Shown here: piece by piece, positions 43,388 to 61,599 of the stretch
Numbering within the stretch: position 1 is the stretch's first letter
Layout of the letters: each line of letters opens with the position of its first letter
IMG/VR virus record: IMGVR_UViG_3300027906_000003
Location: 1 to 64,000 of that record
Strand: one strand, 5' to 3'
Source: a virus
Length of the DNA stretch: 64,000 nucleotides
Translations under genes and position numbers: made by a program
The notes under the pieces: generated by a model
Told to the model about the DNA's origin: nothing
The model's input: the letters and a program-made list of their open reading frames with translations, nothing else
The model's database searches: none

Positions 43388-43600
43388 ATGGAAGAGTATG
43401 CACAAGTTGAAGGACATTCTAATCTTTTAAGAGATGAAGAATCTTCTGCAATTGTAAATACAGACATTGAACAATGGAAACTTGCAAAACAAAGAAAATT
43501 GCGTTTTCAAAACCAAGCGAAAGAGATAAATAGTTTAAAGAGTGAAGTTGGTGAAATTAAAAACCTACTTAACGATATATTAGGAAAGTTAAATGGCTAA
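43388..43600 (+). CDS. small coiled-coil protein following VrlC
   Basis: VEGHSNLLRD..S.AIVN...EI..LK.EV.EIK.LL. Confidence 0.75.
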   Translation: MEEYAQVEGHSNLLRDEESSAIVNTDIEQWKLAKQRKLRFQNQAKEINSLKSEVGEIKNLLNDILGKLNG

Positions 43601-45071
43601 AACCGTAGATAATTACAGCACAATAAACGAATTCAGAGAGAGATATAATGAACTTGCCACAGATGTAGGTGAGGTTTCAGGATTAAGACCTGCGTTAGGA
43701 GAAAATCTTGTTGATGCCGTTAACGCAGTAGAAGATAAAGCATTCTATTTTGGAAAGTATAGATATGTTGCAACTGCAGGACAACAAACATTCACAGGTG
43801 CAGATGCAAATGGAAACACTCTTAAATATAAAGGAAATAGAGTTCAAGTATTTAAGAATGGTTCGTTATTAGAAGAACAAACTGATTGGCAGGTTGGTGG
43901 ACTTGCAGGTGCTTTCTATTATGACATACAATTGATATCGGCGGCAAGTGCTAATGATTTAATACAAATCTATGCTTACACAGGTTCTTTTGAAGGAACT
44001 GCTACATCAACTGCAATACTTTCATTCTTTACAGAAACATTACAGAACACAATCTATAACACAAATTCAAATGGTGTTATACTTCAAGGAGATAATTCAT
44101 CTCCTACAACAACCTTACAAGGTGGATATACTTTACAACTTGCAGGTAAAACTTATGCAGAAGATGACCTAACACTTGCAACAGGTAAACTATTAACTGC
44201 ACCTACTATGACTGATGGCACTTTATCAATCGATAATGGTAACATAACAGCTGCGGTCAATGGAACATTCTCAGCACAAGTTCAAGCAGAACACTTAAAA
44301 TCAACAGATGATTTAGAAGTAGCCGAAGATGCAACAATTGGTGGTGACTTAGGAGTCACTGGAACTGCAACAGTAGGAACTTTGTCATCAGGTGGTATAA
44401 CAGGAACAACTGCAAGTTTTACAGGAAATGTAGACTTAGGAAGTGATGCAAATGATACAGTATCAATTCTTGGTGTTGTAGATACAAATATAATGCCTAA
44501 TTCAGATAATACTAGAACATTAGGTTCTTCTACAAAGAGATTTCAGAGTTTACATGCAACAACTATTACTGCAACAACATTAAATGGTGAACTAGTAGGT
44601 AATGTAAAAGGTGATATCCTTAAAGATGACGGAACCAAAATTTTAGAAAACTCAACAGGTGCGTTGACTGGTACCGTTTCTAGTGTTTCAAATCATGCAG
44701 CGTCAGGATTATCAGATATTAATTATACATCATCACCAGCTGCTGGTCAAGTCTTAGCATGGGATGCCTCAAACAATTATTGGGAACCTGTTAACCCTAC
44801 AAATACAACAGACTCAGTATCAGAGGGTTCAAACAATTATTACTTTACAGATGATAGGGTCAATGCAATCATTAATGCTAATGCAGGTTTAGCCAAATCA
44901 TATGCTACCAACACAGGAAATTCTTTGGATGGTGACATAAATATTAGTGTTAACACCGCAGAAGGAGTCAAAATTGATGGTGATAATGTGGTGATGGACA
45001 AAACAATAGTAAGTTCAGCTCCTTCTGGAGTTGGGTCGACATCATCAGGTCACTTATGGTTTGTAGTATAA
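43593..45071 (+). CDS. tail fibre / whisker-like structural protein
   Basis: T..EFR..YN N-terminus, ATAGQQTF, beta-repeats, EGSNNYYFT; C-terminal SSAPS...GHLWFVV. Confidence 0.7.
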   Translation: MAKTVDNYSTINEFRERYNELATDVGEVSGLRPALGENLVDAVNAVEDKAFYFGKYRYVATAGQQTFTGADANGNTLKYKGNRVQVFKNGSLLEEQTDWQVGGLAGAFYYDIQLISAASANDLIQIYAYTGSFEGTATSTAILSFFTETLQNTIYNTNSNGVILQGDNSSPTTTLQGGYTLQLAGKTYAEDDLTLATGKLLTAPTMTDGTLSIDNGNITAAVNGTFSAQVQAEHLKSTDDLEVAEDATIGGDLGVTGTATVGTLSSGGITGTTASFTGNVDLGSDANDTVSILGVVDTNIMPNSDNTRTLGSSTKRFQSLHATTITATTLNGELVGNVKGDILKDDGTKILENSTGALTGTVSSVSNHAASGLSDINYTSSPAAGQVLAWDASNNYWEPVNPTNTTDSVSEGSNNYYFTDDRVNAIINANAGLAKSYATNTGNSLDGDINISVNTAEGVKIDGDNVVMDKTIVSSAPSGVGSTSSGHLWFVV

Positions 45072-45074
45072 ATT

Positions 45075-46469
45075 ATGTCAGAGAAAATTTATGTAAATAC
45101 TGGTTCGACCTTTCAACAACCATTTAATGATAGGTCACCTAAGAATGCTCAGCAACCTTATATAGCTAATGCTCAGACTCCCTATATAGCTAATTCACAA
45201 ACACCCTTTACATATTCAAATAGACAACCTGCAAAGTATCAGAATCCAACTGATGCTCAGCAACCTTATATAGCTAATGCACAACAGTCGTATCCATATA
45301 TTGCTAATGCAAGACAACCTTACATAGCTAACGCACAACAACCTTATCCATATCAGGCAAATAGTCAGAATCCTTATATTGCGAATGCAAGGCAACCTGC
45401 GAAGTATCAACATCCGACATCTTCTCAGACTCCTTACATAGCTAATGCACAGACACCGTATCCTGCTAATGCAAGACAACCTAGTGATTATCAAACACCT
45501 TATATTGCAAATTATCAAACAGCGTATCCTGCAAATGCGAGACAACCTGTAGATGCTCAACAACCTAGTAATAGTCAAACACCATATCCTGCAAATGCTA
45601 GGCAACCTGCAAAATATAGAAACCCATTTACATATAATGCGAGGACTCCAGCATCTTCACAAACTCCTGTAACCTATGATGTGTGGGGTGGGGGAAATGC
45701 TCAATCAACATCACAATTAGAAACCACAACTGATGTGTCAGCACCTATGGCACCCTTTTCACAAACGCCTACTTTTAATTACCAGACTGTAGGTCAACCA
45801 ACATCAATTCATTGGGGTCCAGGTTCAACACATATAAAAAATAGTCCAAATTCATCATATGCTCCAACAACTGCACCTATGATTTGGAGTACCCAGCAAT
45901 ATAACACTTATAATTACAGTTTCGGTTCTTGTTGGGCTCAGTTCTTTATTGGTTATGAATCTAGTTCAGGCAAAGTTTACTACGGTTATGGTGCGGGTAA
46001 TTCTCAATTCGGAGGCACAAGTGTTGGCACCTCTGGTAATAGAGTATATTTACCTTTAACTGAATTAAGTAATAATAATGTTATTGATAGTTCTTGGTCA
46101 ATATCAGTCAAATATACAGTTCAATCACAAAGTATAGTTCAAGGTGGTACATCTTCTCAACATCCAGCTAGTCCGAGTTATGGTACAGGTTTAGCTGCTG
46201 GAACATATGTAAACATATGGGATGGTTCTTCTGTTCAAAGTAGTGGCATTGAAACATTCATGTGGGAGGCGGTATCATCATCTAACCCAGGAAATGGAGA
46301 TGCAAGGGTTTCTGCAAGTGGTGTAGTATTTACAGTTAAGGCACATAAGACTGGTCAAACATCATACTATACACATTATATTGTAGCACAACATGGAGCT
46401 GGTACCAGCTCACCTTTTGGTGAAATATATTTGAGGTCACTCTATGGTAATAACCATGCACCAGTATAA
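45075..46469 (+). CDS. QPY-repeat filament protein A with C-terminal globular domain
   Basis: 25 units of x(Q/R)xP.. (6/8/10 aa), mostly PYIAN, followed by about 270 aa of Ser/Gly/aromatic-rich sequence. Confidence 0.8.
   Translation: MSEKIYVNTGSTFQQPFNDRSPKNAQQPYIANAQTPYIANSQTPFTYSNRQPAKYQNPTDAQQPYIANAQQSYPYIANARQPYIANAQQPYPYQANSQNPYIANARQPAKYQHPTSSQTPYIANAQTPYPANARQPSDYQTPYIANYQTAYPANARQPVDAQQPSNSQTPYPANARQPAKYRNPFTYNARTPASSQTPVTYDVWGGGNAQSTSQLETTTDVSAPMAPFSQTPTFNYQTVGQPTSIHWGPGSTHIKNSPNSSYAPTTAPMIWSTQQYNTYNYSFGSCWAQFFIGYESSSGKVYYGYGAGNSQFGGTSVGTSGNRVYLPLTELSNNNVIDSSWSISVKYTVQSQSIVQGGTSSQHPASPSYGTGLAAGTYVNIWDGSSVQSSGIETFMWEAVSSSNPGNGDARVSASGVVFTVKAHKTGQTSYYTHYIVAQHGAGTSSPFGEIYLRSLYGNNHAPV
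45111..45656 (+). repeat. coding repeat array A (182 aa)
   Basis: Unit lengths 6,6,8,8,8,6,6,8,10,8,10,8,6,6,8,8,6,8,8,6,6,8,6,8,6. Confidence 0.85.
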
Positions 46470-46483
46470 GGAGATGAGAAGAT

Positions 46484-47200
46484 ATGCCTACAGTTAGTCA
46501 ACCAGTCATAATTCAGCAACCTTATATTGCAAGTGGTCAATCGCCGGTCGATTATAGAGTTCCGTTTACATATCAGGCAAGACAACCTGGAACATATAGA
46601 CACCCCTTTACATATCAAGTTCCGTTTACATATCAGGCAAGACAACCTGGAACATATGATGCAAGGCAACCTGCAAAGTATCAACACCCATTTATATATC
46701 AGGCACGACAGCCTTCTACATATCAGGCAAGACAACCTGCTATATACAGACATCCGGCAGATTATCAAACACCATTTACATATGCTCGTAGACAACCGGC
46801 AACATATGCAAGACAAGGTCAAACTCCGTTTACATATCAAGCAAGAACACCTTTCACATATGATAGACAAGGTCAAACACCATTTACATATCAGGCAAGA
46901 AGTCCGTTTACATACAGAAATCCAACAGACTATCAGACACCTTATATTGCAGATGCAAGACAACCTGGAACATATTCTAATAGACAACCATCCACTTATC
47001 AGAATAGACAACCATTCACATATCAACTTTCGGTTCCAAGCACAAGACCAATAGGTCCTTTGGCAAAAGCAAAACAAGTTTGGGTAAATGATAACGGAAC
47101 TTTAAAAAAGGCAAGTAGTGTATATGTAAATGATGGTGGAACGGCTAAAAAGATACATCAAACACAACCTACAGCACAATTAACAGAACCTAATACCTAG
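46484..47200 (+). CDS. QPY-repeat filament protein B (mirror partner of A)
   Basis: PFTY/PGTY units; C-terminal VWVNDNG and VYVNDGG motifs; AGGAG RBS. Confidence 0.8.
   Translation: MPTVSQPVIIQQPYIASGQSPVDYRVPFTYQARQPGTYRHPFTYQVPFTYQARQPGTYDARQPAKYQHPFIYQARQPSTYQARQPAIYRHPADYQTPFTYARRQPATYARQGQTPFTYQARTPFTYDRQGQTPFTYQARSPFTYRNPTDYQTPYIADARQPGTYSNRQPSTYQNRQPFTYQLSVPSTRPIGPLAKAKQVWVNDNGTLKKASSVYVNDGGTAKKIHQTQPTAQLTEPNT
46493..47038 (+). repeat. coding repeat array B (182 aa)
   Basis: Unit lengths 6,8,6,8,6,6,8,8,6,8,8,6,6,8,10,8,10,8,6,6,8,8,8,6,6, the reverse of A. Confidence 0.85.
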
Positions 47201-47226: not shown

Positions 47227-47562
47227 ATGGCTATTATCGCAAACTTATATATTGACCAAGGAACAGACTTCACAATTACAGTTGATGTCACAGACGCTGC
47301 TGGAGATGTTCTTAATTTGACTAACTATTCTGCGCTTGCACAAGTAAGAAAAACATATAGTTCTTCTAGTGCTTCAGTAGCATTTACTACTTCGATATCA
47401 GCAGCTCAAGGTCAAGTCACATTAAGTCTAAATGATACACAAACAAAAGCTTTAGAAGCAGGTCGATATGTTTACGATTTAAATATCACAAGTGCTGGTG
47501 GGATAACTACTAGAGTTGTCGAAGGACAAGCAATAGTGACACCAGGAGTAAGTCGGAGTTAA
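47227..47562 (+). CDS. Ig-like fibre/baseplate adaptor protein
   Basis: NLYIDQGTDF...AQVRK...GRYVYD...RVVEG...VTPGV. Confidence 0.75.
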   Translation: MAIIANLYIDQGTDFTITVDVTDAAGDVLNLTNYSALAQVRKTYSSSSASVAFTTSISAAQGQVTLSLNDTQTKALEAGRYVYDLNITSAGGITTRVVEGQAIVTPGVSRS

Positions 47563-52754: not shown

Positions 52755-53015
52755 ATGGCAACAACAAATACATTTGTAGTAGAATACGGATTGACAGTTG
52801 GAACAACCGAAGTTATAAATTCATCAGGAAAGATACAAGCGGCAGCTATTTCAACCTTAGATTCTGATGACCTTTCGGAAGGTTCTACAAATCAATATTT
52901 TACTAACGCGAGAGCAAGAGGGTCTATATCCTTAGCTTCTGGAGAGACAAATCTCAGTTATAATTCTACATCTGGAGAACTTAGTCTACCAACAGTTAAC
53001 GGAGGTACCATCTAA
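52755..53015 (+). CDS. short fibre connector protein
   Basis: FVVEYGL, EGSTNQYFTNARAR, C-terminal NGGTI. Confidence 0.68.
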   Translation: MATTNTFVVEYGLTVGTTEVINSSGKIQAAAISTLDSDDLSEGSTNQYFTNARARGSISLASGETNLSYNSTSGELSLPTVNGGTI

Positions 53016-55084
53016 TGGCGGGTGAAAAGAACTTTAATATTAAAAATGGACTATCAGTTCAAGGCGTAGAAGTAATAAACTCGTCTGGTGACTTAGTTGC
53101 CGGCGGAGTTGGAACAGCAGTTCAAGAGGCCATTGCAGATAAAATCGGTGGAATACTCAGTGCAACAGGTGGTGCAACTGCAACATACAATGATGGTGCA
53201 GACACTATCGTTATTGATGTTCCAATTACAGATGAAGATAACATGGCATCAAACAGTGCTACTGCTATTCCTTCACAACAATCAGTCAAAGCATATGTAG
53301 ACTCTCAAATCTTAACAAAAGACAATACAGATGAGATAACAGAGGGTTCAACTAATTTATATTTCACAAACGCAAGAGCAGATGCCAGAATTGCAAACGC
53401 AATCAAAGATGAAGATAACATGGCATCAGATAGTGCAACTCATGTTCCTTCACAACAATCTGTTAAGGCTTTTGTAGCCACACAACTTGCAACTAAAGAC
53501 GCATTATCAGAACTTTCAGGTGATTCAGACGATATCACAGAGGGTACAACAAACTTATTCCATACATCTGAAAGAGTTGCAGATGTTGTTGGAGGAATGG
53601 TGACTTCAAATACCGAATCTGGTATAACAGTCACATATGAGGATGGTGATAACACTTTAGACTTTGCAATAGGAACACTAAACCAAAACACAACAGGTTC
53701 AGCAGCTACTCTAACAACTCCAAGAGCAATTTCAGGTACCAACTTTGATGGTTCTGCAGACATTACTTTAACGACTGCCGGAATAACAGAAAACACAAAT
53801 CTCTACTATACAAACGAAAGAGTTGATGATAGAGTCAACGCATTATTGACTGCTGGTACTAACATAACAACATCATACGATGATGCAAATGGTACCTTAA
53901 CAATTAACTCTTCAGGTAAAACAGAAGAAGAAATTGAAGACATTGTAAACGGATTAGTTGTTGGTGGAACAGGAATATCATCAACATATGATGACGCTGC
54001 TGGAACATTAACACTTGCAACTTCTATTACACAATATGCAGATTCAGATGCTAGAGGTGCTATCTCAGTCACAGATTCAGGTGGAGATGGTAGTTTAGCA
54101 TATAATAACTCAACAGGTGTAATAACTTATACAGGACCAAGTGCATCAGAAGTAAGAGCTCATCTAAGTGCTGGAACTGGTGTATCATATTCAGGTGGTG
54201 CAATCAGTATTGGTCAGGCAGTTTCAACTTCTTCAGATGTCACATTTGGGGATATAGCTGCAACAGATATAACACTATCTGGAAACTTAACAGTTAATGG
54301 TACCACAACAACAGCTGCTTCTACTAACACAGTAATCACAGATAGATTGATTGAGTTAGGAAACGGAACAACAGGAACACCAGCAAATGATATGGGTCTT
54401 GTCTTCGAAAGAGGAAGTTCAGACAATGTATTTGTAGGTTGGGACGAAAGTGCAGACGCTGTTACCGTAGGAACAGGTTCATTTACAGGTGCTAGCACAG
54501 GTGATTTAACACATACAGTAGCTAACTTTACTGCTGGTGTTGGAACATTTGCCTCATTAGATATTTCAGGAAACGCAGACATTGACGGAACAATGGAAGC
54601 AGATGCGTATACAGTTGACGGAACTGCATTAAACGAATACATTGCCGATACAGTTGGTGCAATGGTATCGTCAAATACTGAAAGTGGCATCACAGTTGCT
54701 TATCAAGACGGAGACAATACATTAGACTTTACAATCGGAACACTTAACCAAAACACTACAGGTTCAGCGGCAACATTAACAACAGCCAGAGCAATAGCAT
54801 TAGGTGGAGATTTATCAGGTTCTGCAAACTTTGATGGTTCTGCAGATATAACAATTACTGCTACAGTAGCAGATGATTCACACAATCATACAATTGCAAA
54901 TGTAGATGGACTACAAACTGCATTAGATTCAAAATATGATTCAGGTGATAATATTGCAGCGGGAACAATAACAACAACGAATGCAAGTAATTCGGGTGGA
55001 TATGTAAGAAATGTATATCAGTCAACATCTAATCCAGGCAGTAGTGATGGTGCAGTTGGTGACTTATGGATATTATACAGTTAA
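53015..55084 (+). CDS. long tail fibre protein with internal duplications
   Basis: FNIKNGL, EGSTNLYFT repeats, two DEDNMAS..PSQQSVKA and two SNTESGITV modules; C-terminal GDLWILYS. Confidence 0.8.
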   Translation: MAGEKNFNIKNGLSVQGVEVINSSGDLVAGGVGTAVQEAIADKIGGILSATGGATATYNDGADTIVIDVPITDEDNMASNSATAIPSQQSVKAYVDSQILTKDNTDEITEGSTNLYFTNARADARIANAIKDEDNMASDSATHVPSQQSVKAFVATQLATKDALSELSGDSDDITEGTTNLFHTSERVADVVGGMVTSNTESGITVTYEDGDNTLDFAIGTLNQNTTGSAATLTTPRAISGTNFDGSADITLTTAGITENTNLYYTNERVDDRVNALLTAGTNITTSYDDANGTLTINSSGKTEEEIEDIVNGLVVGGTGISSTYDDAAGTLTLATSITQYADSDARGAISVTDSGGDGSLAYNNSTGVITYTGPSASEVRAHLSAGTGVSYSGGAISIGQAVSTSSDVTFGDIAATDITLSGNLTVNGTTTTAASTNTVITDRLIELGNGTTGTPANDMGLVFERGSSDNVFVGWDESADAVTVGTGSFTGASTGDLTHTVANFTAGVGTFASLDISGNADIDGTMEADAYTVDGTALNEYIADTVGAMVSSNTESGITVAYQDGDNTLDFTIGTLNQNTTGSAATLTTARAIALGGDLSGSANFDGSADITITATVADDSHNHTIANVDGLQTALDSKYDSGDNIAAGTITTTNASNSGGYVRNVYQSTSNPGSSDGAVGDLWILYS

Positions 55085-55104: not shown

Positions 55105-55977
55105 ATGGTAACAGGTAATCAAAAGGTTAAAACCCCAGCTGGTTGGAATTCAACTAGAGGGGCTTGGGTTAAGACTGCATCAGACACATGGACAGATGTT
55201 GACCAGATTTATGTAAAAACTCCAACAGGTTGGAATAATGCGTCAGGTCAGGCAATTACTCAGAACCCTTACCCATATATTGCGAATAATCAAACCCCTT
55301 ATATTGCTAATGCTCAACAGCCTTATCCTTATATTGCGAATAACCAGACTCCATATATTGCAAATGGTCAACAACCATATCCGTATATAGCAAACAGTCA
55401 GACTCCTTATATAGCAAACGGTCAACAACCTTATCCATATCAGGCAAATAGTCAGACTCCTTATATTGCTAACGCACAACAACCGTATCCATATATTGCG
55501 AATAGTCAATCACCATATATTGCTAATGCAAGACAACCTGCAAAATATCAGAATCCTGTAAATGGACAACAACCCTATATTGCAAATGGTCAAAGAAATG
55601 AGTCATACAGAAATCCTGTAAACTATCAGACACCTTATATTGCAAATGCTAGACAACCTGCACATTATAGGAATCCTGTAAGTTATCGTGTGCCTTATAT
55701 TGCAAATGGTCAACAACCATTTACCTATAATGCAAGGTATCCGGCAACATATCCGGCAAATGCTCAGCAACCATTCACCTACAATGCAAGGTATCCTGCA
55801 ACATATCCGGCAAATGCAAGACAACCATTTACATATAATGCAAGATATCCTGCAAATGCAACATATCCTGCAAACGGACAACAACCGTCTACATATCCGT
55901 TCTTGTATAATGCACCTTATCCATTCTTCCAACCATTTGGTGGCGGCGGTGGTTCACCTAACATGAACTTGAAATAA
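55105..55977 (+). CDS. QPY-repeat filament protein C
   Basis: N-terminal head with three VKT...W motifs, then 26+ x(Q/R)xP units. Confidence 0.8.
   Translation: MVTGNQKVKTPAGWNSTRGAWVKTASDTWTDVDQIYVKTPTGWNNASGQAITQNPYPYIANNQTPYIANAQQPYPYIANNQTPYIANGQQPYPYIANSQTPYIANGQQPYPYQANSQTPYIANAQQPYPYIANSQSPYIANARQPAKYQNPVNGQQPYIANGQRNESYRNPVNYQTPYIANARQPAHYRNPVSYRVPYIANGQQPFTYNARYPATYPANAQQPFTYNARYPATYPANARQPFTYNARYPANATYPANGQQPSTYPFLYNAPYPFFQPFGGGGGSPNMNLK
55258..55875 (+). repeat. coding repeat array C (206 aa)
   Basis: Unit lengths (10,8)x5,(6,6,8)x3,8,10,8,10,8,6,6. Confidence 0.88.
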
Positions 55978-56011
55978 TGGAGTATATAATGAATAAAACG
56001 GAGAACACACA

Positions 56012-56749
56012 ATGGCTATAGGATTTTACTGGACAAGTGCTCAAGGTAACACTAGGTCACCGTTTACTTATCAAGTCCCATTTACATATCGTGTGCCTTA
56101 CATTGCAAATGGTAGGTCACCATTTACTTATCAAGCATCATATCGTGTGCCTTATATTGCGAATGGTAGAAGTCCTTTCACATATCAAGCATCATATCGT
56201 GTGCCTTACATTGCAAATGGTAGGTCACCGTTTACATATAATGCAAGGTATCCGGCAGGTTATAGAAATCCGGTAAGTTATCGAGTTCCGTTTACATATT
56301 CAAATAGACAACCTGCATTATATCAGAATCCTGTAATTTATCAAGTTCCGTTTACTTACAACAATAGGTCTCCGTTTACATACAGAAACCCTGTAGATTA
56401 TAGAATACCGTTTACATATCAGTCAAGACAACCAGGCACATATCAGAGAACAGGACAAACTCCATTCACTTATCAGAATAGACAACCTGGAACATATGAA
56501 ACACAAGGTCAAACACCATTTACCTATCAAAACAGGCAACCAGGAACATATGATAGGCAAGGACAGACTCCATTCACTTATCAGAATAGACAACCTGGAA
56601 CATATGCAAGACAAGGTCAGACTCCATTCACTTATCAGAATAGACAACCTGGAACATATGCTACACAAGGTAGAACACCAGTGTCTCGTTGGGATGGAGT
56701 TTTATCACAAACTTGGCCAGCAGCTCCGTTTGATGCTACAAACTCATAA
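56012..56749 (+). CDS. QPY-repeat filament protein D (mirror partner of C)
   Basis: GGAG RBS; YRVPYIAN, GQTPFTYQ and NRQPGTY units. Confidence 0.8.
   Translation: MAIGFYWTSAQGNTRSPFTYQVPFTYRVPYIANGRSPFTYQASYRVPYIANGRSPFTYQASYRVPYIANGRSPFTYNARYPAGYRNPVSYRVPFTYSNRQPALYQNPVIYQVPFTYNNRSPFTYRNPVDYRIPFTYQSRQPGTYQRTGQTPFTYQNRQPGTYETQGQTPFTYQNRQPGTYDRQGQTPFTYQNRQPGTYARQGQTPFTYQNRQPGTYATQGRTPVSRWDGVLSQTWPAAPFDATNS
56051..56668 (+). repeat. coding repeat array D (206 aa)
   Basis: Unit lengths 6,6,8,10,8,10,8,(8,6,6)x3,(8,10)x5, the reverse of C. Confidence 0.88.
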
Positions 56750-56808
56750 ATCAACTCATAAAATAACACCTAAATATCTGTATTAAACAAACTTAATACA
56801 GGTATTTT

Positions 56809-58461
56809 ATGGCAGCTGATTCTAAATTTATTGACATCAAAACAGTTGAAGATGTTGATAAGATAAAACAAATAGATTTCTCAGATGTAGAGAACGCATT
56901 CTCTATAAGAAACAAAGAAGATTCTGAACACTATCATTTAGGAAGTCTAAATGTGAATCGTGTTATGAAAGATATCAATCCTTGTTATCAAGTTCTTAAA
57001 AAAGTATTCGAAGAGAAAAAAATACCACCTCTTAAATTATTTACATATGGTGATGTAATAAATGATAGAAGAGGAAATACAATGTTGACTATGCACGGTT
57101 TAAAACACCATTCTCTAGTATATAACGCATTCCTACCTTATGGTTATACTTGTGCTCCAACTCCAGAAATGTTTCCAACAGGAACAAATACATCTGTAAT
57201 TAGAACAGAAGAAGACCCAAATGGAGAAAGGTCTATAAATTATTATGCAGTAGAAAAAGATGAAGAAGATAGTCAATCTCAACCACAAAAAACACTTTGG
57301 GATAGTTCTTACTATCACGCTGCGAAAGCACACTGGTTAACTCAAAGTATAATTGAAGATGGTTTATGGGCACCAATACAAGGAATTATTTTAAAAGATA
57401 CTTCATGGATTGATGAAAACAATCCAGATGAAAAGTATAAATTCTATGTTCATCCAGGTTCTGTTCGTTCAGGTGTTATTGAAGAAATGCAAGACCCTAG
57501 TATGATGTGTCATTTCTTTGACCCACATAACAAGGTTCCTGATGTTGAACCAGCAACAGTAGATGAGTTTTTGGATTATTGGAAAGACTTACTTGAAAAA
57601 AGAAATATAGAACAAGACAATCTATCTTTTATTATAACAGGTGGAGTTATAGAGGTAAGCAGTGAGTTTGCAAATGTGTCTGATTTTAGGCCTAAAATAT
57701 ATGAGTTTAATAAGAAAGTTCATAAACTTGCAAAAGGTAAACCTCTAAACATATACATTGGTTATGACTCAACACATAATCAATTAGAAGAATTAACCAA
57801 GTTCTCCATAGAAGACTCAATTAAACAAAGTTTTTCTGCAAATACAAAAACAAATCGATTCATTCCTGAGATAAAAATGCTTGACTATTCTAAGATTCCA
57901 GTGTATAATAGGGAGTATGCAAATCAATCTACTGCGTTTACATACAGTAGATTTTTGATACCTTACTTAGAGAATTATGAAGGATTCAGTATGTTTCTTG
58001 ATGATGATATTCTTTTTGAAGAGAATTTATTACCAATGTTCTACTATCTAAATCCTGATGATGCGGTTGCGTGTATTCAATACCCACAATATAAACACGA
58101 TTCTGTTAAGTTTAATGGTGAAATAAACATAGATTATCCATGTAAGTTGTGGTCTTCATTAATGATATTTAATAATGGACATGAAGACTGTAAGAAACTA
58201 ACACCAGAAGTTGTTAATACATGGACAGGTGCTCAGTTGCATCAGTTCGAATGGACAGATAAATTGAGTAAGATACCTGAACACTATATTTTTACTGAAG
58301 GATATGATAATCCAGAAACCAAATGGGGTTGTTCTGGTTATCATTATACAAGAGGTGGTCCTTGGATAGATAACATGGACACATCTAATATTAAAAGACT
58401 ATCACACTATGAGAAAATAAAGACTCGTAGAGACAACCTAAATAATTTGAAGAGAGGATAA
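56809..58461 (+). CDS. unknown N-terminal domain fused to a GT-A glycosyltransferase
   Basis: C-terminal half IYIGYDS, STAFTYSRFLIPYL, FLDDD (DxD), WSSLMIFN, HYTRGGPW. Confidence 0.78.
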   Translation: MAADSKFIDIKTVEDVDKIKQIDFSDVENAFSIRNKEDSEHYHLGSLNVNRVMKDINPCYQVLKKVFEEKKIPPLKLFTYGDVINDRRGNTMLTMHGLKHHSLVYNAFLPYGYTCAPTPEMFPTGTNTSVIRTEEDPNGERSINYYAVEKDEEDSQSQPQKTLWDSSYYHAAKAHWLTQSIIEDGLWAPIQGIILKDTSWIDENNPDEKYKFYVHPGSVRSGVIEEMQDPSMMCHFFDPHNKVPDVEPATVDEFLDYWKDLLEKRNIEQDNLSFIITGGVIEVSSEFANVSDFRPKIYEFNKKVHKLAKGKPLNIYIGYDSTHNQLEELTKFSIEDSIKQSFSANTKTNRFIPEIKMLDYSKIPVYNREYANQSTAFTYSRFLIPYLENYEGFSMFLDDDILFEENLLPMFYYLNPDDAVACIQYPQYKHDSVKFNGEINIDYPCKLWSSLMIFNNGHEDCKKLTPEVVNTWTGAQLHQFEWTDKLSKIPEHYIFTEGYDNPETKWGCSGYHYTRGGPWIDNMDTSNIKRLSHYEKIKTRRDNLNNLKRG

Positions 58462-58464
58462 ATT

Positions 58465-59046
58465 ATGAATGATATAAAAAACGCTTTAGTTTTTTGTGAG
58501 AACAGAAATCTTTGGATAAGAAAACCAAACGGACTTGAATACGAATTTCAGAATGTTGATAAACCTGCATTAGGTTTTGAATTTGATGTTGTAATATATG
58601 ATGAGATGGAAAGTAAAATTCTTAAATGGGACCCAAATAAAAATTTTGACGAACAAGAAATAGTTCCTTTAAATGAAAGTGAGAAAGAACTTTGTGAACA
58701 ATATATTGCAAATTCAGAAGCACCAGAAGGAATAAATCTACACAATCAATATGTAGAAAGACTTGGTGATTATTGCAGACAACAACAAGAAGAAGTTCGA
58801 ATGACTTATGGTTTCCGTGATATGGAAATGGTATTGGTTGCTGGTAGAGAGGGTTCAAATCATCCTATGAGAGGAAATGCCAGAAGAGTATTAGAGTATG
58901 TTGATAATACACATCAAATATTTGCTTCGGTAACTGATGAAATCTTTGCAACTAAAGAAGAACTACTTAAAGATTATGATGTTTATAGAAGACAGATACC
59001 TCAATCGTCTATGGCTACAGGCCATGCCGAATTAGGTAATGCCTAA
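58465..59046 (+). CDS. hypothetical protein, possible tail fibre assembly chaperone
   Basis: Position after the fibre genes; helical C-terminus loosely resembling tail-fibre-assembly proteins. Confidence 0.45.
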   Translation: MNDIKNALVFCENRNLWIRKPNGLEYEFQNVDKPALGFEFDVVIYDEMESKILKWDPNKNFDEQEIVPLNESEKELCEQYIANSEAPEGINLHNQYVERLGDYCRQQQEEVRMTYGFRDMEMVLVAGREGSNHPMRGNARRVLEYVDNTHQIFASVTDEIFATKEELLKDYDVYRRQIPQSSMATGHAELGNA

Positions 59047-59048
59047 AG

Positions 59049-59792
59049 ATGCAAGTCGTTCACATTGATAAACCCTTTAAGATACAGGACATGCCTTTAA
59101 AAGATGTCTATGTATTAGATAATTGGTTATCAACTGAACTACATCAACACTTCGATAAACTAATTTCTAATAATTCTTGGTGGTCTAAAACAAATCAAGT
59201 AGGCAGTAATAGTCCTACAGGTCTTCCACACCATTCTTTTTGGGGTGCGTCTTTCTTTAGAGACAACTATGAAATAGAACATGACATGGAACCTCTACAT
59301 ACATATTTTGTTAAATCTATTATAGAAAGACTTGAAGTTGAATTTGGATTTAAATATACTCGTTTTCAATATGCAGGCCTAAACTCACAAACACAAGGTT
59401 GTCCAGGAACAATACATACAGACTGTTCAAATGATGACGCATGGAATATATCCTTTCTATATTACCCAAATAGATTTTGGAATCCAAAATGGGGTGGGAC
59501 ATTAAGATTGCTTGATGAACCACATCAAGGTTTAGATGGAAGACAAGAACATATTGAGAAACATCAGATAGCCGAAGTAGAGTTTGTTCCAAATCGACTA
59601 GTTATATTTGACGGAAGAATACCTCATGGTGCAGATGCACCAAATGAAAGTGCAAGATATATGGATAGAAAATCTTTAGTAATAAGAGGAGATGAGGTAG
59701 AATTAATAAAAAACACAGAGGTGTTGTATAAATCTTATAGAAGGCCAATGACAGAATGGGCCGCTGGAACACACCTACAACCTTACTTTTAA
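59049..59792 (+). CDS. 2OG-Fe(II) oxygenase, prolyl-hydroxylase-like
   Basis: HTD...LYYPN..W...WGG...PNRLVIFDGRIPH...R. Confidence 0.85.
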   Translation: MQVVHIDKPFKIQDMPLKDVYVLDNWLSTELHQHFDKLISNNSWWSKTNQVGSNSPTGLPHHSFWGASFFRDNYEIEHDMEPLHTYFVKSIIERLEVEFGFKYTRFQYAGLNSQTQGCPGTIHTDCSNDDAWNISFLYYPNRFWNPKWGGTLRLLDEPHQGLDGRQEHIEKHQIAEVEFVPNRLVIFDGRIPHGADAPNESARYMDRKSLVIRGDEVELIKNTEVLYKSYRRPMTEWAAGTHLQPYF

Positions 59793-59793
59793 A

Positions 59794-60879
59794 ATGCCAA
59801 CAATAGAATTTACATGTTATAACGATAGAACTCTAAAAGAGACTAGACCTATTCTTGCGTCTAAAGTCCAACCAGAATGGTGGAAAGGGTTGAAAATTAA
59901 TGAGATAGTCAGAGGTGATAAACAACAGACTATTAGAGCATGTCCAGCTATGCAAGATTGGTTGACTATGGGGTATTACCTAATTGCAGAAAAGGATATG
60001 TATGTTCAAATAGGTAGAGACAAATATGATGAGAGTGGAAAGGCTTCTGTTGCATGGTCATATGAAGACCCAAAATTAGGTTCGTCATCTCATCCAGACA
60101 CACAATTTGGAAATGCGTTCGAACCTGAAAAAAGAGCTGGACTTCCAGTGAAAGACGCATTCAAATTTAGGAATGCCTGGAATATAAAAACCCCACCTGG
60201 TTATTCTTGTTTATATCTTGACCCATTTTTACATCAAAACAATTTCTTTAGTGTATGGCCAGGTATAATAGACACTGATAAGTTTAATTTAAATATGGAT
60301 AATTCACAAGTTATATTTTATCCTAAAGTAGACCATTCATTTGTCATAAAGAAAGGAACTCCTTTAACTCAAATCATACCATTTAGAAGAGAAGAATGGA
60401 ATTCTTCTGCTCAGGTTAAAGACCCAAAAACATTTATAGACAATTTATCTGATGTGACATCTGTATATGGACCTGATAAACCAGTCACTTTACATATGGA
60501 ATATGCAGAATGGCAAGAAAAAGATAGGAAAGAAAAAGAAAAATTCAATGAGAGCAGAATTGCAACAGACGCTCTTATGGAAAATGCAAAAGGTAATAAA
60601 ATTAGAAAGTCTGTTCAAGGTGCCATAAACGAGGCAAATCTATTAGAAGCAAATGGATTAGGTCCTTATAGAAAAGTTGGAATGCACATGCCTAAAACTA
60701 AACTATACAAGAATAAAGGTAATGAATTGGATATAGAGATACCACCAGAATGCCCTATGCACAAGAAAACAGAAGAGTCTCCTGAAATTCAATTAGAAAT
60801 GGACTTCAATGATAAACAACGAGAGTTAACAGATTTAAATTGGGACGGTTCGGAGTCAAAGAAAATAGATAGAGATTAG
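59794..60879 (+). CDS. oxygenase-associated beta-fold protein (DUF6065-like)
   Basis: PEWW, TIRACPAMQD...GY, W.IKTPPGYSCLY, PGIIDTD, KGTPL.QIIPF.RE. Confidence 0.65.
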   Translation: MPTIEFTCYNDRTLKETRPILASKVQPEWWKGLKINEIVRGDKQQTIRACPAMQDWLTMGYYLIAEKDMYVQIGRDKYDESGKASVAWSYEDPKLGSSSHPDTQFGNAFEPEKRAGLPVKDAFKFRNAWNIKTPPGYSCLYLDPFLHQNNFFSVWPGIIDTDKFNLNMDNSQVIFYPKVDHSFVIKKGTPLTQIIPFRREEWNSSAQVKDPKTFIDNLSDVTSVYGPDKPVTLHMEYAEWQEKDRKEKEKFNESRIATDALMENAKGNKIRKSVQGAINEANLLEANGLGPYRKVGMHMPKTKLYKNKGNELDIEIPPECPMHKKTEESPEIQLEMDFNDKQRELTDLNWDGSESKKIDRD

Positions 60880-60882
60880 ATT

Positions 60883-61599
60883 ATGTCAGTTAAATTTTTT
60901 GCACCTCAGATGGTGTTTATAAGAGACTTGTTAGACCCAAGTTTAGGTGACATTGGTGTTGATGATAATTATATAAGTCTTCTTAAAAGAACTATAGATG
61001 AAATGAGGAGTGATGACCCAATAGGAAGAAGAATTTCAAATGCAGATACAGGTTGGCAATCAAATGACGGTTGTGAAGACCATCCAGCCTTTGTAAAATT
61101 AATGAGATGTATAAGAGAATCTCTTTATGAAGAAGTTTGGCCTTTTTGGGGATTAGATAGAAATAAGGGTCATATGGTTGAAATGCACAACTCATGGGCA
61201 AATATAAATGATAAGGGTGCCTGGAATAAACCACACAAACACAATGGTTGTTGGATGTCTGGTGCCTTTTATATAAATGCACAAGGAGATGAGGGTGATT
61301 TCATAGCAATGTCAGATTCAGATAGAGTAATGGGTGATTTTCCACATTCACAAAGAATGCAAGAGACTGAAAATTTAAGACCTAAAACAGGAATGTTGTA
61401 TATGTTTCCTAGTGGTTTGTCTCACATGGTTGCACCAAATACAACTGATAATGATAGATATAGTATATCATTTAATGTAGGATTTAGATACAAAGGAGAA
61501 AGACCAACAGGAGATATTCCAAATTGGCGTTGGGATGAAACTCTTTTTGATATCACACCAGACGGAAAACTTATACAAGTATCTACTGCAGAAGAATAA
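60883..61599 (+). CDS. 2OG-Fe(II) oxygenase (TIGR02466-like)
   Basis: GWQS, SWANIN, NKPHKH, SGAFY, FPSGLSHMV.PN, RYSISFN. Confidence 0.85.
   Translation: MSVKFFAPQMVFIRDLLDPSLGDIGVDDNYISLLKRTIDEMRSDDPIGRRISNADTGWQSNDGCEDHPAFVKLMRCIRESLYEEVWPFWGLDRNKGHMVEMHNSWANINDKGAWNKPHKHNGCWMSGAFYINAQGDEGDFIAMSDSDRVMGDFPHSQRMQETENLRPKTGMLYMFPSGLSHMVAPNTTDNDRYSISFNVGFRYKGERPTGDIPNWRWDETLFDITPDGKLIQVSTAEE

What the first reader, a model, noticed from the sequence alone, without database searches (positions are those of the whole stretch)
55105..56749. Mirror-image repeat proteins C and D: a candidate antiparallel, register-coded heterodimeric filament
Seen: splitting both proteins at the x(Q/R)xP motif gives C = 10,8,10,8,10,8,10,8,10,8,6,6,8,6,6,8,6,6,8,8,10,8,10,8,6,6 and D = 6,6,8,10,8,10,8,8,6,6,8,6,6,8,6,6,8,10,8,10,8,10,8,10,8,10. 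D is exactly C reversed over 26 irregular units (206 aa each); one C unit, GQRNES, lacks the Pro but keeps the length. The DNA is not an inverted duplicate, because the antisense frames encode unrelated Cys/Ile/Arg sequence. Inference: the two separately encoded chains zip together antiparallel, probably as a long two-stranded beta ribbon (about 65-70 nm if fully extended at about 3.3 A per residue), so a repeat gain or loss in one gene must be matched at the mirror position in the other. I know of no described phage fibre built this way.
Basis: partly seen in the sequence, partly recalled or inferred. Interest (0 to 1): 0.95.

Follow-up and report, generated by a model that had tools for sequence, protein, structure and literature searches.

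The report
Mirror-coded two-protein phage tail filament
Two neighbouring genes of an uncultured marine T4-like phage encode repeat proteins that match unit by unit when one is read backwards, a rule kept in dozens of relatives, so the two chains most likely zip head-to-tail into a thin tail filament of a design not described before.

Summary
Observation confirmed. C (55105-55977) and D (56012-56749) each carry a 206-aa proline-punctuated array. In one gapless antiparallel register, 26 of the 27 D prolines in that span face a C proline (unit-order shuffles: mean 11, max 17).

The mirror is conserved. Among 62 unique adjacent pairs (arrays 98-532 aa, 47 different unit strings), 61 beat all 300 shuffles. 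Units also pair by type: 862 of 889 opposed 8-mers are xTY against non-xTY, and 1 is xTY/xTY. Residue covariation lies on odd positions near the antiparallel diagonal.

New here: in some relatives the second pair type (A/B) sits in the same genomic slot as one chain, arm, middle domain, then complementary arm.

Best reading: a heteromeric antiparallel beta-type filament at the end of a tail fibre. Stoichiometry, physical binding and virion presence are not shown. I found no description in print.

This scan has found the same design before on other DNA, for example e1-5879396, e1-6137868 and e1-5784398.

The parts
53015..55084 (+). Upstream tail-fibre protein (689 aa) ending ...GDGAVGDLWILYS; probable carrier of the C/D filament
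   Evidence: PHROG hits phrog_697, phrog_11011 (long tail fiber distal subunit) and phrog_1833. An ORF ending in G[DA]G[AS]VGD[LM]W[IV][LY]Y[SA] precedes the C-like gene in 46 of the 46 C/D-type rows whose locus held an upstream ORF.
55105..55269 (+). C, N-terminal non-repeat part (residues 1-55) with three VKTxxGW / WVKT-type motifs; inferred base of the filament
   Evidence: This is the invariant block in the alignment of 14 C-like proteins. In the antiparallel register it faces the C-terminal tail of D.
55270..55887 (+). C array, residues 56-261, 206 aa, 26 units of 6, 8 or 10 residues
55888..55977 (+). C tip tail (STYPFLYNAPYPFFQPFGGGGGSPNMNLK) and stop; inferred turn end of the filament
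   Evidence: In homologs the poly-Gly run is followed by a Hint domain, or is replaced by a globular domain.
55978..56011 (+). 34-nt spacer with GGAG about 9 nt before D's ATG; D is translated on its own
   Evidence: Read directly.
56012..56062 (+). D lead (residues 1-17, MAIGFYWTSAQGNTRSP), facing the C tip tail
56063..56680 (+). D array, residues 18-223, 206 aa, 26 units, the exact reverse of the C unit string
56681..56749 (+). D C-terminal tail (VSRWDGVLSQTWPAAPFDATNS) and stop; the RWDGxLxQxWP motif is conserved in D-like proteins
56778..56808 (+). Terminator-like hairpin (CTGTATTAA / TTAATACAG, 6-nt loop) followed by a T run, just before the next gene
   Evidence: Read directly. No scan was run, so this is weak. 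No TATAAATA lies between 52718 and 61885, so fibre, C and D may share one transcript (inference).
45075..46469 (+). A: second pair, outgoing chain (464 aa): IYVNTG N-terminus, 182-aa array, about 260-aa globular C-terminal domain
46484..47200 (+). B: second pair, returning chain (238 aa): 182-aa array, then VWVNDNG / VYVNDGG motifs
   Evidence: 23 of the 26 B prolines in the span face an A proline (z 7.8). Cross pairs score C x B 13 of 30 and A x D 15 of 29, against cognate 26 of 29 and 23 of 30.
47227..47559 (+). 111-aa protein after A/B, of a family annotated as tail-fibre assembly
   Evidence: phrog_3304 'L-shaped tail fiber protein assembly', E 4.4e-26. It follows the pair in 10 of 10 A/B-type rows and the single-chain form in 14 of 14 loci.
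56809..58461 (+). 550-aa protein with a GT8-like glycosyltransferase part; conserved neighbour after D
   Evidence: Pfam Glyco_transf_8 at 22.3 bits, below the 24.3 cut-off; phrog_28018. An ORF follows D in 48 of 48 C/D-type rows: 499-550 aa in 42, and 274-374 aa in 6.

Best explanation
C and D are the two strands of one heteromeric filament at the far end of a tail fibre.

Proposed arrangement:
- C runs outward from a base made of its N-terminal motifs.
- D runs back from the tip to the base.
- The two 206-residue arrays lie antiparallel and in register, unit against unit, with each boundary proline facing a boundary proline.
- A bulky xTY unit always faces a unit with a small residue. Three residues after one chain's proline sits Tyr; it faces the Gly, Ala or Ser that sits three residues before the other chain's proline.
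- All units have even length, which keeps every proline at the same kind of site in an antiparallel beta ladder.
- The irregular order of 6-, 8- and 10-residue units fixes one register and keeps the C/D pair from mixing with the A/B pair of the same phage.

Shown: the sequence rules and their conservation.
Inferred: direct contact, beta geometry, attachment to the upstream fibre, and a role in host binding.
Open: whether one C/D duplex stands alone or several bundle together.
For: (1) Window pair. 26 of 27 D prolines coincide in one gapless antiparallel register (shuffle max 17; parallel best 18; next register 16).

(2) Conservation with change. Of 62 unique adjacent pairs from IMG/VR loci plus the window, 61 exceed all 300 shuffles, 53 have z >= 7, and the median share matched is 0.96. 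Spans run from 98 to 532 aa and there are 47 distinct unit strings. Independently measured array lengths correlate at r = 0.95, n = 59.

(3) Cognate specificity. The protein's own partner is best or tied for 51 of 58 D proteins. Within three genomes that hold two pairs, cross pairs match 13-16 prolines against 14-36 for the six cognate pairs; the lowest, 14 of 32, is L053, the subfamily that loses register.

(4) Type code over 2047 opposed unit pairs.
- 8-mers: 862 of 889 are xTY against non-xTY; 1 is xTY/xTY; 9 are small/small.
- 6-mers: 529 of 668 are xTY against small.
- 10-mers: 354 of 397 are xTY against YPY-type.

(5) Residue covariation inside heterotypic unit pairs is confined to odd positions with p+q = L or L-2. 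At 8-mer positions (3,5) the pairs are A with N/A/H, R with H/Y, and G with I/F/V. This is the pattern expected for cross-strand and diagonal neighbours in an antiparallel ladder (established knowledge of beta sheets).

(6) Gene-fusion evidence for the sister pair type.
- In 14 of 27 loci with an A-type gene, one ORF of 445-541 aa carries the A-type N-terminus and the B-type C-terminus, and no separate partner gene is present.
- It lies in the same slot: after a protein ending GHLW[FL]V[IV] in 13 of the 13 loci with an upstream ORF, and before the 110-111-aa assembly-like gene in 14 of 14.
- Its two arms mirror each other in the clearer cases: L152 18 against shuffle max 14, L166 12 against 9, P0180 17 against 13, P0183 17 against 13, P0195 16 against 14.

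(7) In L033 the gene order is D then C and the mirror still holds, 29 of 33. A read-through product is therefore not needed.

(8) Context. The pairs lie among baseplate and fibre genes, between a 2235-aa baseplate-region protein and the neck genes. C-like relatives carry hypervariable globular ends, as receptor-binding proteins do.
Against: - No physical evidence of binding, and no evidence that either protein is in the virion.
- AlphaFold2 gives C alone no confident fold (mean pLDDT 44.6), so the beta geometry rests on sequence logic.
- The many pairs are related phages. The shuffle z-scores ignore this, although the 47 different strings limit the problem.
- Exceptions exist. L053/L054/L059 match only 14 of 28 prolines, and L054 does not beat its shuffles. 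L009 has an unmatched 20-aa unit. In 15 of 62 pairs fewer than 85% of D prolines match.
- Of 11 unique single-chain forms from loci, only 3 exceed all shuffles, 3 tie and 5 do not. Of the 7 from the protein database, 4 exceed, 1 ties and 2 do not.
- No single-chain form of the C/D type was found. None of 242 database proteins and none of 140 repeat ORFs combines a C-type N-terminus with a D-type C-terminus.
- Both arrays are cationic (+10 and +19), so pairing gains nothing from charge.
Confidence: 0.8

Rival explanations
1. Same antiparallel pairing, but D is an assembly splint or cap. It templates and holds C in register during folding and is then removed, so the mature fibre holds C only.
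For: Phage fibres often need dedicated chaperones encoded next to them (established knowledge). A paper on Alteromonas phage fibres with transient chaperone caps appeared in a search listing; I saw only its title and abstract (PMC10579305). A protein of a family annotated as tail-fibre assembly follows the A/B pair.
Against: The complement runs residue by residue over the whole 206 aa, and up to 532 aa in relatives, which implies an equimolar and costly chaperone. The single-chain forms keep both arms in one polypeptide. D-like proteins keep a conserved C-terminal motif that faces C's conserved base, as expected for a permanent joint.
Confidence: 0.1
2. C and D pair, but as a compact two-chain beta-solenoid-like body with coils of 18 (10+8) and 20 (6+6+8) residues stacked across the axis. 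This would be about 5 nm long rather than a filament of tens of nanometres.
For: Super-periods of 18 and 20 residues are typical coil sizes of beta-solenoids (own knowledge). AlphaFold2 places a short strand in nearly every unit of C, but at low confidence.
Against: Side-by-side solenoids would need equal coil numbers. They would not need the reversed order of units inside each coil, the unit-by-unit type complement, or covariation along p+q = L. Array length varies fivefold among relatives, as in fibre shafts.
Confidence: 0.07
3. The mirror is chance or a by-product of repeat turnover, and C and D act separately.
For: Both arrays are built from a few unit lengths in blocks, which raises the background. 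Parallel and shuffled controls still reach 16-18 of 27.
Against: 61 of 62 pairs beat every shuffle, with 47 different strings. The heterotypic type code and cognate specificity also argue against chance. No DNA-level inverted repeat exists.
Confidence: 0.03

Closest known systems
Needle domain at the tip of the T4 long tail fibre protein gp37
   Same: It is a distal fibre part in which polypeptide runs out to the tip and back, so antiparallel segments pack along a thin rod (this description is recalled: Bartual et al. 2010, PDB 2XGF, not opened here). I read a passage stating that gp37 is a trimer with seven iron atoms along the needle (PMC6957217).
   Different: gp37 is one chain in a homotrimer held by HxH iron sites. 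C and D are two genes, have no HxH, have no sequence match to any solved structure, and use a proline-punctuated unit code.
Fold-back stalk of streptococcal antigen I/II adhesins
   Same: Two repeat regions of complementary type pair antiparallel into a long stalk that presents a distal domain. The single-chain A/B-type forms found here have the same arm, head, arm layout.
   Different: Antigen I/II pairs an alpha helix with a polyproline helix within one chain. Here both arms have a proline every 6-10 residues, which excludes long helices (established knowledge), and the window's pairs are split into two genes.
Heterodimeric and antiparallel coiled coils such as SMC/Rad50 arms and keratin pairs (own knowledge)
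   Same: Long two-segment rods in which repeat position sets register and partner choice.
   Different: Those are alpha-helical heptads. Here AlphaFold2 predicts no helix, at low confidence, units are 6, 8 or 10 residues long and end in Pro, and pairing is large-against-small on one face.
Host recognition cluster of pelagimyophages (PMC7029224; passages read)
   Same: Same genomic place: a variable block with fibre genes and glycosyltransferases between a giant baseplate protein and the neck genes. The window's gp6-like protein is 39-42% identical to those of the Methylophilales phage Melnitz and the Pelagibacter phages Mosig and HTVC008M.
   Different: The passages read do not mention these repeat pairs. 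The paper's supplementary tables could not be opened. 0 of 4 cultured relatives searched hold a D-like gene, while the same query finds 9 places in the window's own genome.

Membership tests
Mirror-coded repeat-pair family as seen in this scan (uncultured marine T4-like phages) | Two adjacent same-strand genes whose proline registers coincide in one antiparallel register | tested here: met
   26 of 27 D prolines, z 9.2. 61 of 62 related pairs exceed all shuffles.
Mirror-coded repeat-pair family as seen in this scan (uncultured marine T4-like phages) | Heterotypic unit pairing (xTY unit against small or YPY-type unit) | tested here: met
   All eleven 8-mer rungs of the window's C/D are xTY against small. 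Family-wide, 862 of 889 8-mer pairs are heterotypic.
Mirror-coded repeat-pair family as seen in this scan (uncultured marine T4-like phages) | Conserved ends and synteny (C N-terminus QKVKTPxGW; D C-terminus RWDGxLxQxWP; fibre ending GDLW.. upstream; about 500-550-aa gene downstream) | tested here: met
T4 gp37-type needle | HxH iron-binding motifs along the rod | tested here: not met
   0 HxH in C and in D; 1 His in the C array and none in the D array.
T4 gp37-type needle | Sequence relation to the solved protein | tested here: not met
   phmmer with D gave one chance-level hit at E 0.24. A profile of 14 C-like proteins gave none at E <= 1.
T4 gp37-type needle | Homotrimer of fold-back chains | not testable with these tools
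   Stoichiometry is unknown and the one complex job gave no answer.
Collagen-like or other known fibre repeats (Pfam, PHROGs) | Match to a curated family model, or Gly-X-Y runs | tested here: not met
   0 Pfam and 0 PHROG families for C and D. No run of four or more G-x-x triplets.
Hint / intein-like self-cleaving C-terminal domain | Hint module after the poly-Gly run | tested here: not met
   Absent in the window's C. Present above Pfam cut-offs in the L126 homolog: Intein_splicing 39.4 against 35.8, Hint 34.2 against 29.7, Vint 28.9 against 27.
Alpha-helical coiled coil | Heptad repeats and helical propensity | tested here: not met
   A Pro every 6-10 residues. No helix in the AlphaFold2 model of C, at low confidence.

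The most novel reading that the evidence does not exclude
Nature has a protein analogue of a nucleic-acid duplex. Two polypeptides, or two arms of one, pair antiparallel over hundreds of residues through a small alphabet of complementary units, large against small on one face, with prolines as punctuation at fixed ladder sites. The order of units works as an address. It sets the register, lets one virion carry two non-mixing filaments (A/B and C/D), and lets fibre length evolve by matched repeat gain and loss. This would be a new class of fibrous fold and a natural, programmable beta-zipper.
Probability: 0.5. Interest if true: 0.97.

Novelty: categorically new. Interest (0 to 1): 0.9.

Why it matters
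If the pairing is real, it is a fibre-building principle not seen in solved phage fibres, which are parallel homotrimers or fold-back homotrimers.

It would explain how abundant uncultured marine myophages vary fibre length and keep several fibres apart. It would also offer a natural, sequence-addressable beta-strand pairing code for protein design.

The hypothesis is directly testable with two small genes expressed in E. coli. The single-chain relatives found here give an easier first target for structure work.

Tried and rejected
- Complex prediction of full-length C with D: verdict 'no answer' (score 0.00, controls not run). It counts neither for nor against binding.
- AlphaFold2 of C alone with 14 homologs: mean pLDDT 44.6, pTM 0.32. 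It gave no usable fold, only short strands.
- AlphaFold2 of the globular tip domain of the L005 C-like protein with 11 sequences: pLDDT 56, pTM 0.58. Foldseek against PDB found nothing at E <= 0.001; the best hit was a CBM21 at E 0.078 and TM about 0.3.
- Exhaustive profile search with A's C-terminal domain: only 3 representatives, too few for a good model.
- Cultured phages: blastn found no match. tblastn gave only weak hits (36-41% identity) to a hypothetical ORF in the early region of Pseudomonas phages and to Vibrio phages. I take these as compositional matches.
- ESM Atlas: unnamed viral clusters, and structural neighbours that are extended repeat proteins. No lead.
- Public runs: short Logan contigs of two marine DNA runs tile most of the stretch without mismatch, but these may be the source sample. 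Contigs break inside the repeats. The RNA run held only a diverged relative, so nothing can be said on expression.
- Whole-array mutual information by register shift: high at all shifts because of periodicity, so uninformative. Replaced by the within-unit analysis.
- A self-mirror scan of 603 ORFs in the loci found no fold-back chain at a strict threshold. Single-chain forms came only from the 'longer' protein search.
D's tail also has a W-x7-W motif, so the count of three is not firm.
- Supplementary tables of PMC7029224 were not available and may list these proteins.
Full report
**What is there.** The stretch holds two same-strand ORFs, C (55105-55977, 290 aa) and D (56012-56749, 245 aa). 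A 34-nt spacer with its own GGAG separates them. Neither matches any Pfam or PHROG family or any solved structure by sequence.

The window is part of a 123,820-bp IMG/VR virus record. Its gp6-like baseplate protein is 39-42% identical to those of the Methylophilales phage Melnitz and the Pelagibacter myophages Mosig and HTVC008M.

C and D lie in the fibre region, downstream of baseplate genes and a 2235-aa protein and upstream of the neck genes. This corresponds to the 'host recognition cluster' described for pelagimyophages (PMC7029224, passages read).

**Checking the observation.**
- The C string needs two hand splits: a 14 where Asn replaces Pro, and a 12 whose inner Pro is not in the motif.
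- A test free of such choices compares proline positions in every gapless register. At one antiparallel register, 26 of the 27 D prolines within a 206-residue span face a C proline.
- Controls are lower. 300 shuffles of D's unit order give mean 11 and at most 17. The best parallel register gives 18 and the next antiparallel register 16.
- The DNA holds no long inverted repeat, only 14-31 nt imperfect matches. The symmetry therefore exists only at the protein level.

**A second pair.** The window's A/B pair (45075-46469 and 46484-47200) behaves the same way: 23 of 26 prolines, z 7.8. The cross pairs C x B and A x D reach only 13 and 15.

**Relatives.**
- Two scans of IMG/VR gave 137 loci. With the window they hold 62 unique adjacent pairs.
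- In 61 of the 62, the observed proline coincidence exceeds all 300 shuffles. 53 have z of 7 or more. The median share of D prolines matched is 0.96.
- The mirrored spans run from 98 to 532 residues and comprise 47 different unit strings. The symmetry is kept through many changes of repeat number.
- Array lengths measured in each protein on its own correlate at r = 0.95 (n = 59).
- For 51 of 58 D proteins the cognate C is the best or tied partner among all C proteins.
- In L033 the gene order is D then C and the mirror still holds.

Exceptions:
- L053/L054/L059 match only 14 of 28 prolines and lose register in the distal half.
- L009 has one extra 20-residue unit near the tip of C with no change in D.
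- In 15 of 62 pairs fewer than 85% of D prolines match.

**A pairing code.** Across 2047 opposed unit pairs, units pair by type as well as by length.

| Unit length | Dominant pairing | Count | Notable others |
|---|---|---|---|
| 8-mers | xTY against non-xTY | 862 of 889 | 1 xTY/xTY, 9 small/small |
| 6-mers | xTY against small | 529 of 668 | 81 of a self-complementary xxY class |
| 10-mers | xTY against YPY-type | 354 of 397 | |

Within heterotypic pairs, excess mutual information is confined to odd positions with p+q equal to the unit length or two less. Examples are (3,5) and (1,5) in 8-mers and (1,5) in 6-mers. The pairs at (3,5) show size and chemistry compensation: Ala with Asn/Ala/His, Arg with His/Tyr, and Gly with Ile/Phe/Val.

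This is the pattern expected for direct and diagonal cross-strand neighbours on one face of an antiparallel beta ladder (established knowledge of sheets). The fact that all units have even length would keep every proline at the same, non-hydrogen-bonded kind of site (inference).

Both arrays are cationic (+10 and +19) and lack Cys and HxH.

- A search for longer relatives of D returned five proteins of 482-491 aa with the A-type N-terminus and the B-type C-terminus. It also returned two hybrids with an A-type N-terminus and a D-type C-terminus.
- The five 482-491-aa proteins consist of an arm, a non-repeat middle of roughly 100 residues (judged by eye), and a second arm.
- The arms mirror each other in P0180, P0183, P0195 and P0236, which give 17, 17, 16 and 12 coincidences, each above its shuffle maximum.
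- The mirror is not significant in P0206 and P0144, and P0075 only ties its maximum.
- A scan of IMG/VR with P0195 gave 27 loci with an A-type gene. In 14 of them one such ORF (445-541 aa) occupies the slot that the split A and B genes occupy elsewhere. That slot lies after a protein ending GHLW[FL]V[IV] and before the 110-111-aa gene of a family annotated as tail-fibre assembly.
- Of 11 unique sequences from these loci, 3 exceed, 3 tie and 5 fail the shuffle maximum. L152 shows clear unit complementarity over about 150 residues per arm.
- Fusion of two proteins in some genomes is classical evidence that they act together. Here it also fixes the topology: out, turn, back.
- No single-chain form of the C/D type was seen.

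**Polarity and context.**
- Every C/D-type pair with an upstream ORF in the locus (46 of 46) follows a fibre protein ending ...GDGAVGDLW[IV][LY]YS. Every one precedes a conserved gene that carries a GT8-like part in the window.
- C-like relatives end in one of three ways after the array: poly-Gly plus a short tail (as in the window), poly-Gly plus a Hint domain (Pfam above cut-off), or a hypervariable globular domain.
- A variable distal domain on the outgoing chain, conserved motifs where C's N-terminus meets D's C-terminus, and a fibre gene just upstream fit one picture: a filament anchored at the C-N/D-C end on the tip of the upstream fibre, with the turn end facing the host. This is inference.

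**What is not known.**
- Binding, stoichiometry, geometry and virion presence are all untested.
- Structure tools gave nothing usable (see Tried and rejected).
- The aromatic stripe on the odd face may be buried by bundling of two or three duplexes, so a six-stranded rod like the gp37 needle remains possible. It could also be exposed to bind sugars. I cannot tell which.

**Novelty.**
- Seven literature searches were run, including motif strings and the terms tail fibre, antiparallel, heterodimer, beta-ribbon, complementary repeats and Hint. None found a description.
- All database relatives are unnamed or 'hypothetical'.
- The four cultured relatives searched lack the genes.
- Earlier agents of this scan reached the same reading on other genomes. 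Those are not independent experiments, but they show that the design is widespread in this phage clade.

Noticed in passing
L126:2843-3487 (C-like C-terminus); also L083, L084, L092, L096, L118, L120, L131, L133, L134, L137 and, on reading its C-terminus, L094 (not flagged by the script): In many relatives the outgoing chain ends in poly-Gly, then Cys, then a Hint / intein-like domain of about 158 aa that ends in ...VHN plus 4-8 residues. It would cut itself off at the filament tip. The window's C keeps only GGGGG plus 7 residues.
   Followed up: partly
L152:3501-4967; P0180, P0183, P0195, P0206, P0236: Natural single-chain versions of the A/B pair (arm, non-repeat middle, complementary arm) sit in the same genomic slot as the split genes. 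They are good first targets for structure prediction or crystallography.
   Followed up: yes
P0075 (155 aa) and P0144 (502 aa): Hybrid single chains with an A-type N-terminus and a D-type C-terminus. The two base types can be recombined. P0075 would be a mini fold-back of about 60 residues per arm.
   Followed up: partly
L009 versus L006 (C-like 739 versus 719 aa, D-like 543 aa in both): One extra 20-residue unit (FTYNARYP-ANAQSP-SNAQSP type) near the tip of C with no matching change in D. This is either a natural mismatch or an assembly difference in a repeat.
   Followed up: partly
L033 (also L034, L035, L055): Gene order is fibre, D-like, C-like. The mirror holds, with 29 of 33 prolines.
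   Followed up: partly
window 56809-61599: A conserved block after D: a 550-aa protein with a GT8-like part, a 2OG-Fe(II) oxygenase at 59049-59792 (Pfam 2OG-FeII_Oxy_3, 33 bits) and a second at 60883-61599 (phrog_81). They could modify the regularly spaced prolines. No chemistry has been shown.
   Followed up: partly
window 47227-47559: A 111-aa protein after A/B matches phrog_3304, annotated 'L-shaped tail fiber protein assembly'. It is conserved after both split and single-chain A/B forms.
   Followed up: partly
window 43593-45071 and 53015-55084 (C-terminal ends): The proteins upstream of each pair end in pair-specific stubs, ...GHLWFV[IV] before A/B and ...GDLW[IV][LY]YS before C/D, throughout the relatives. 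These are possible docking strands for the pair's base motifs.
   Followed up: partly
window 55270-55887 and 56063-56680: Both arrays are strongly cationic (+10 and +19), rich in Tyr, Gln, Asn and Arg, and have no Cys. This fits a surface that binds anionic glycans, but nothing has been tested.
   Followed up: no
MK819239.1 33925-35274 (L138) and OK483201.1 1-572 (L139): Weak tblastn matches of C and D to a hypothetical ORF in the early region of Pseudomonas phage YA3 and its relatives, and to a Vibrio phage. These are probably compositional.
   Followed up: partly
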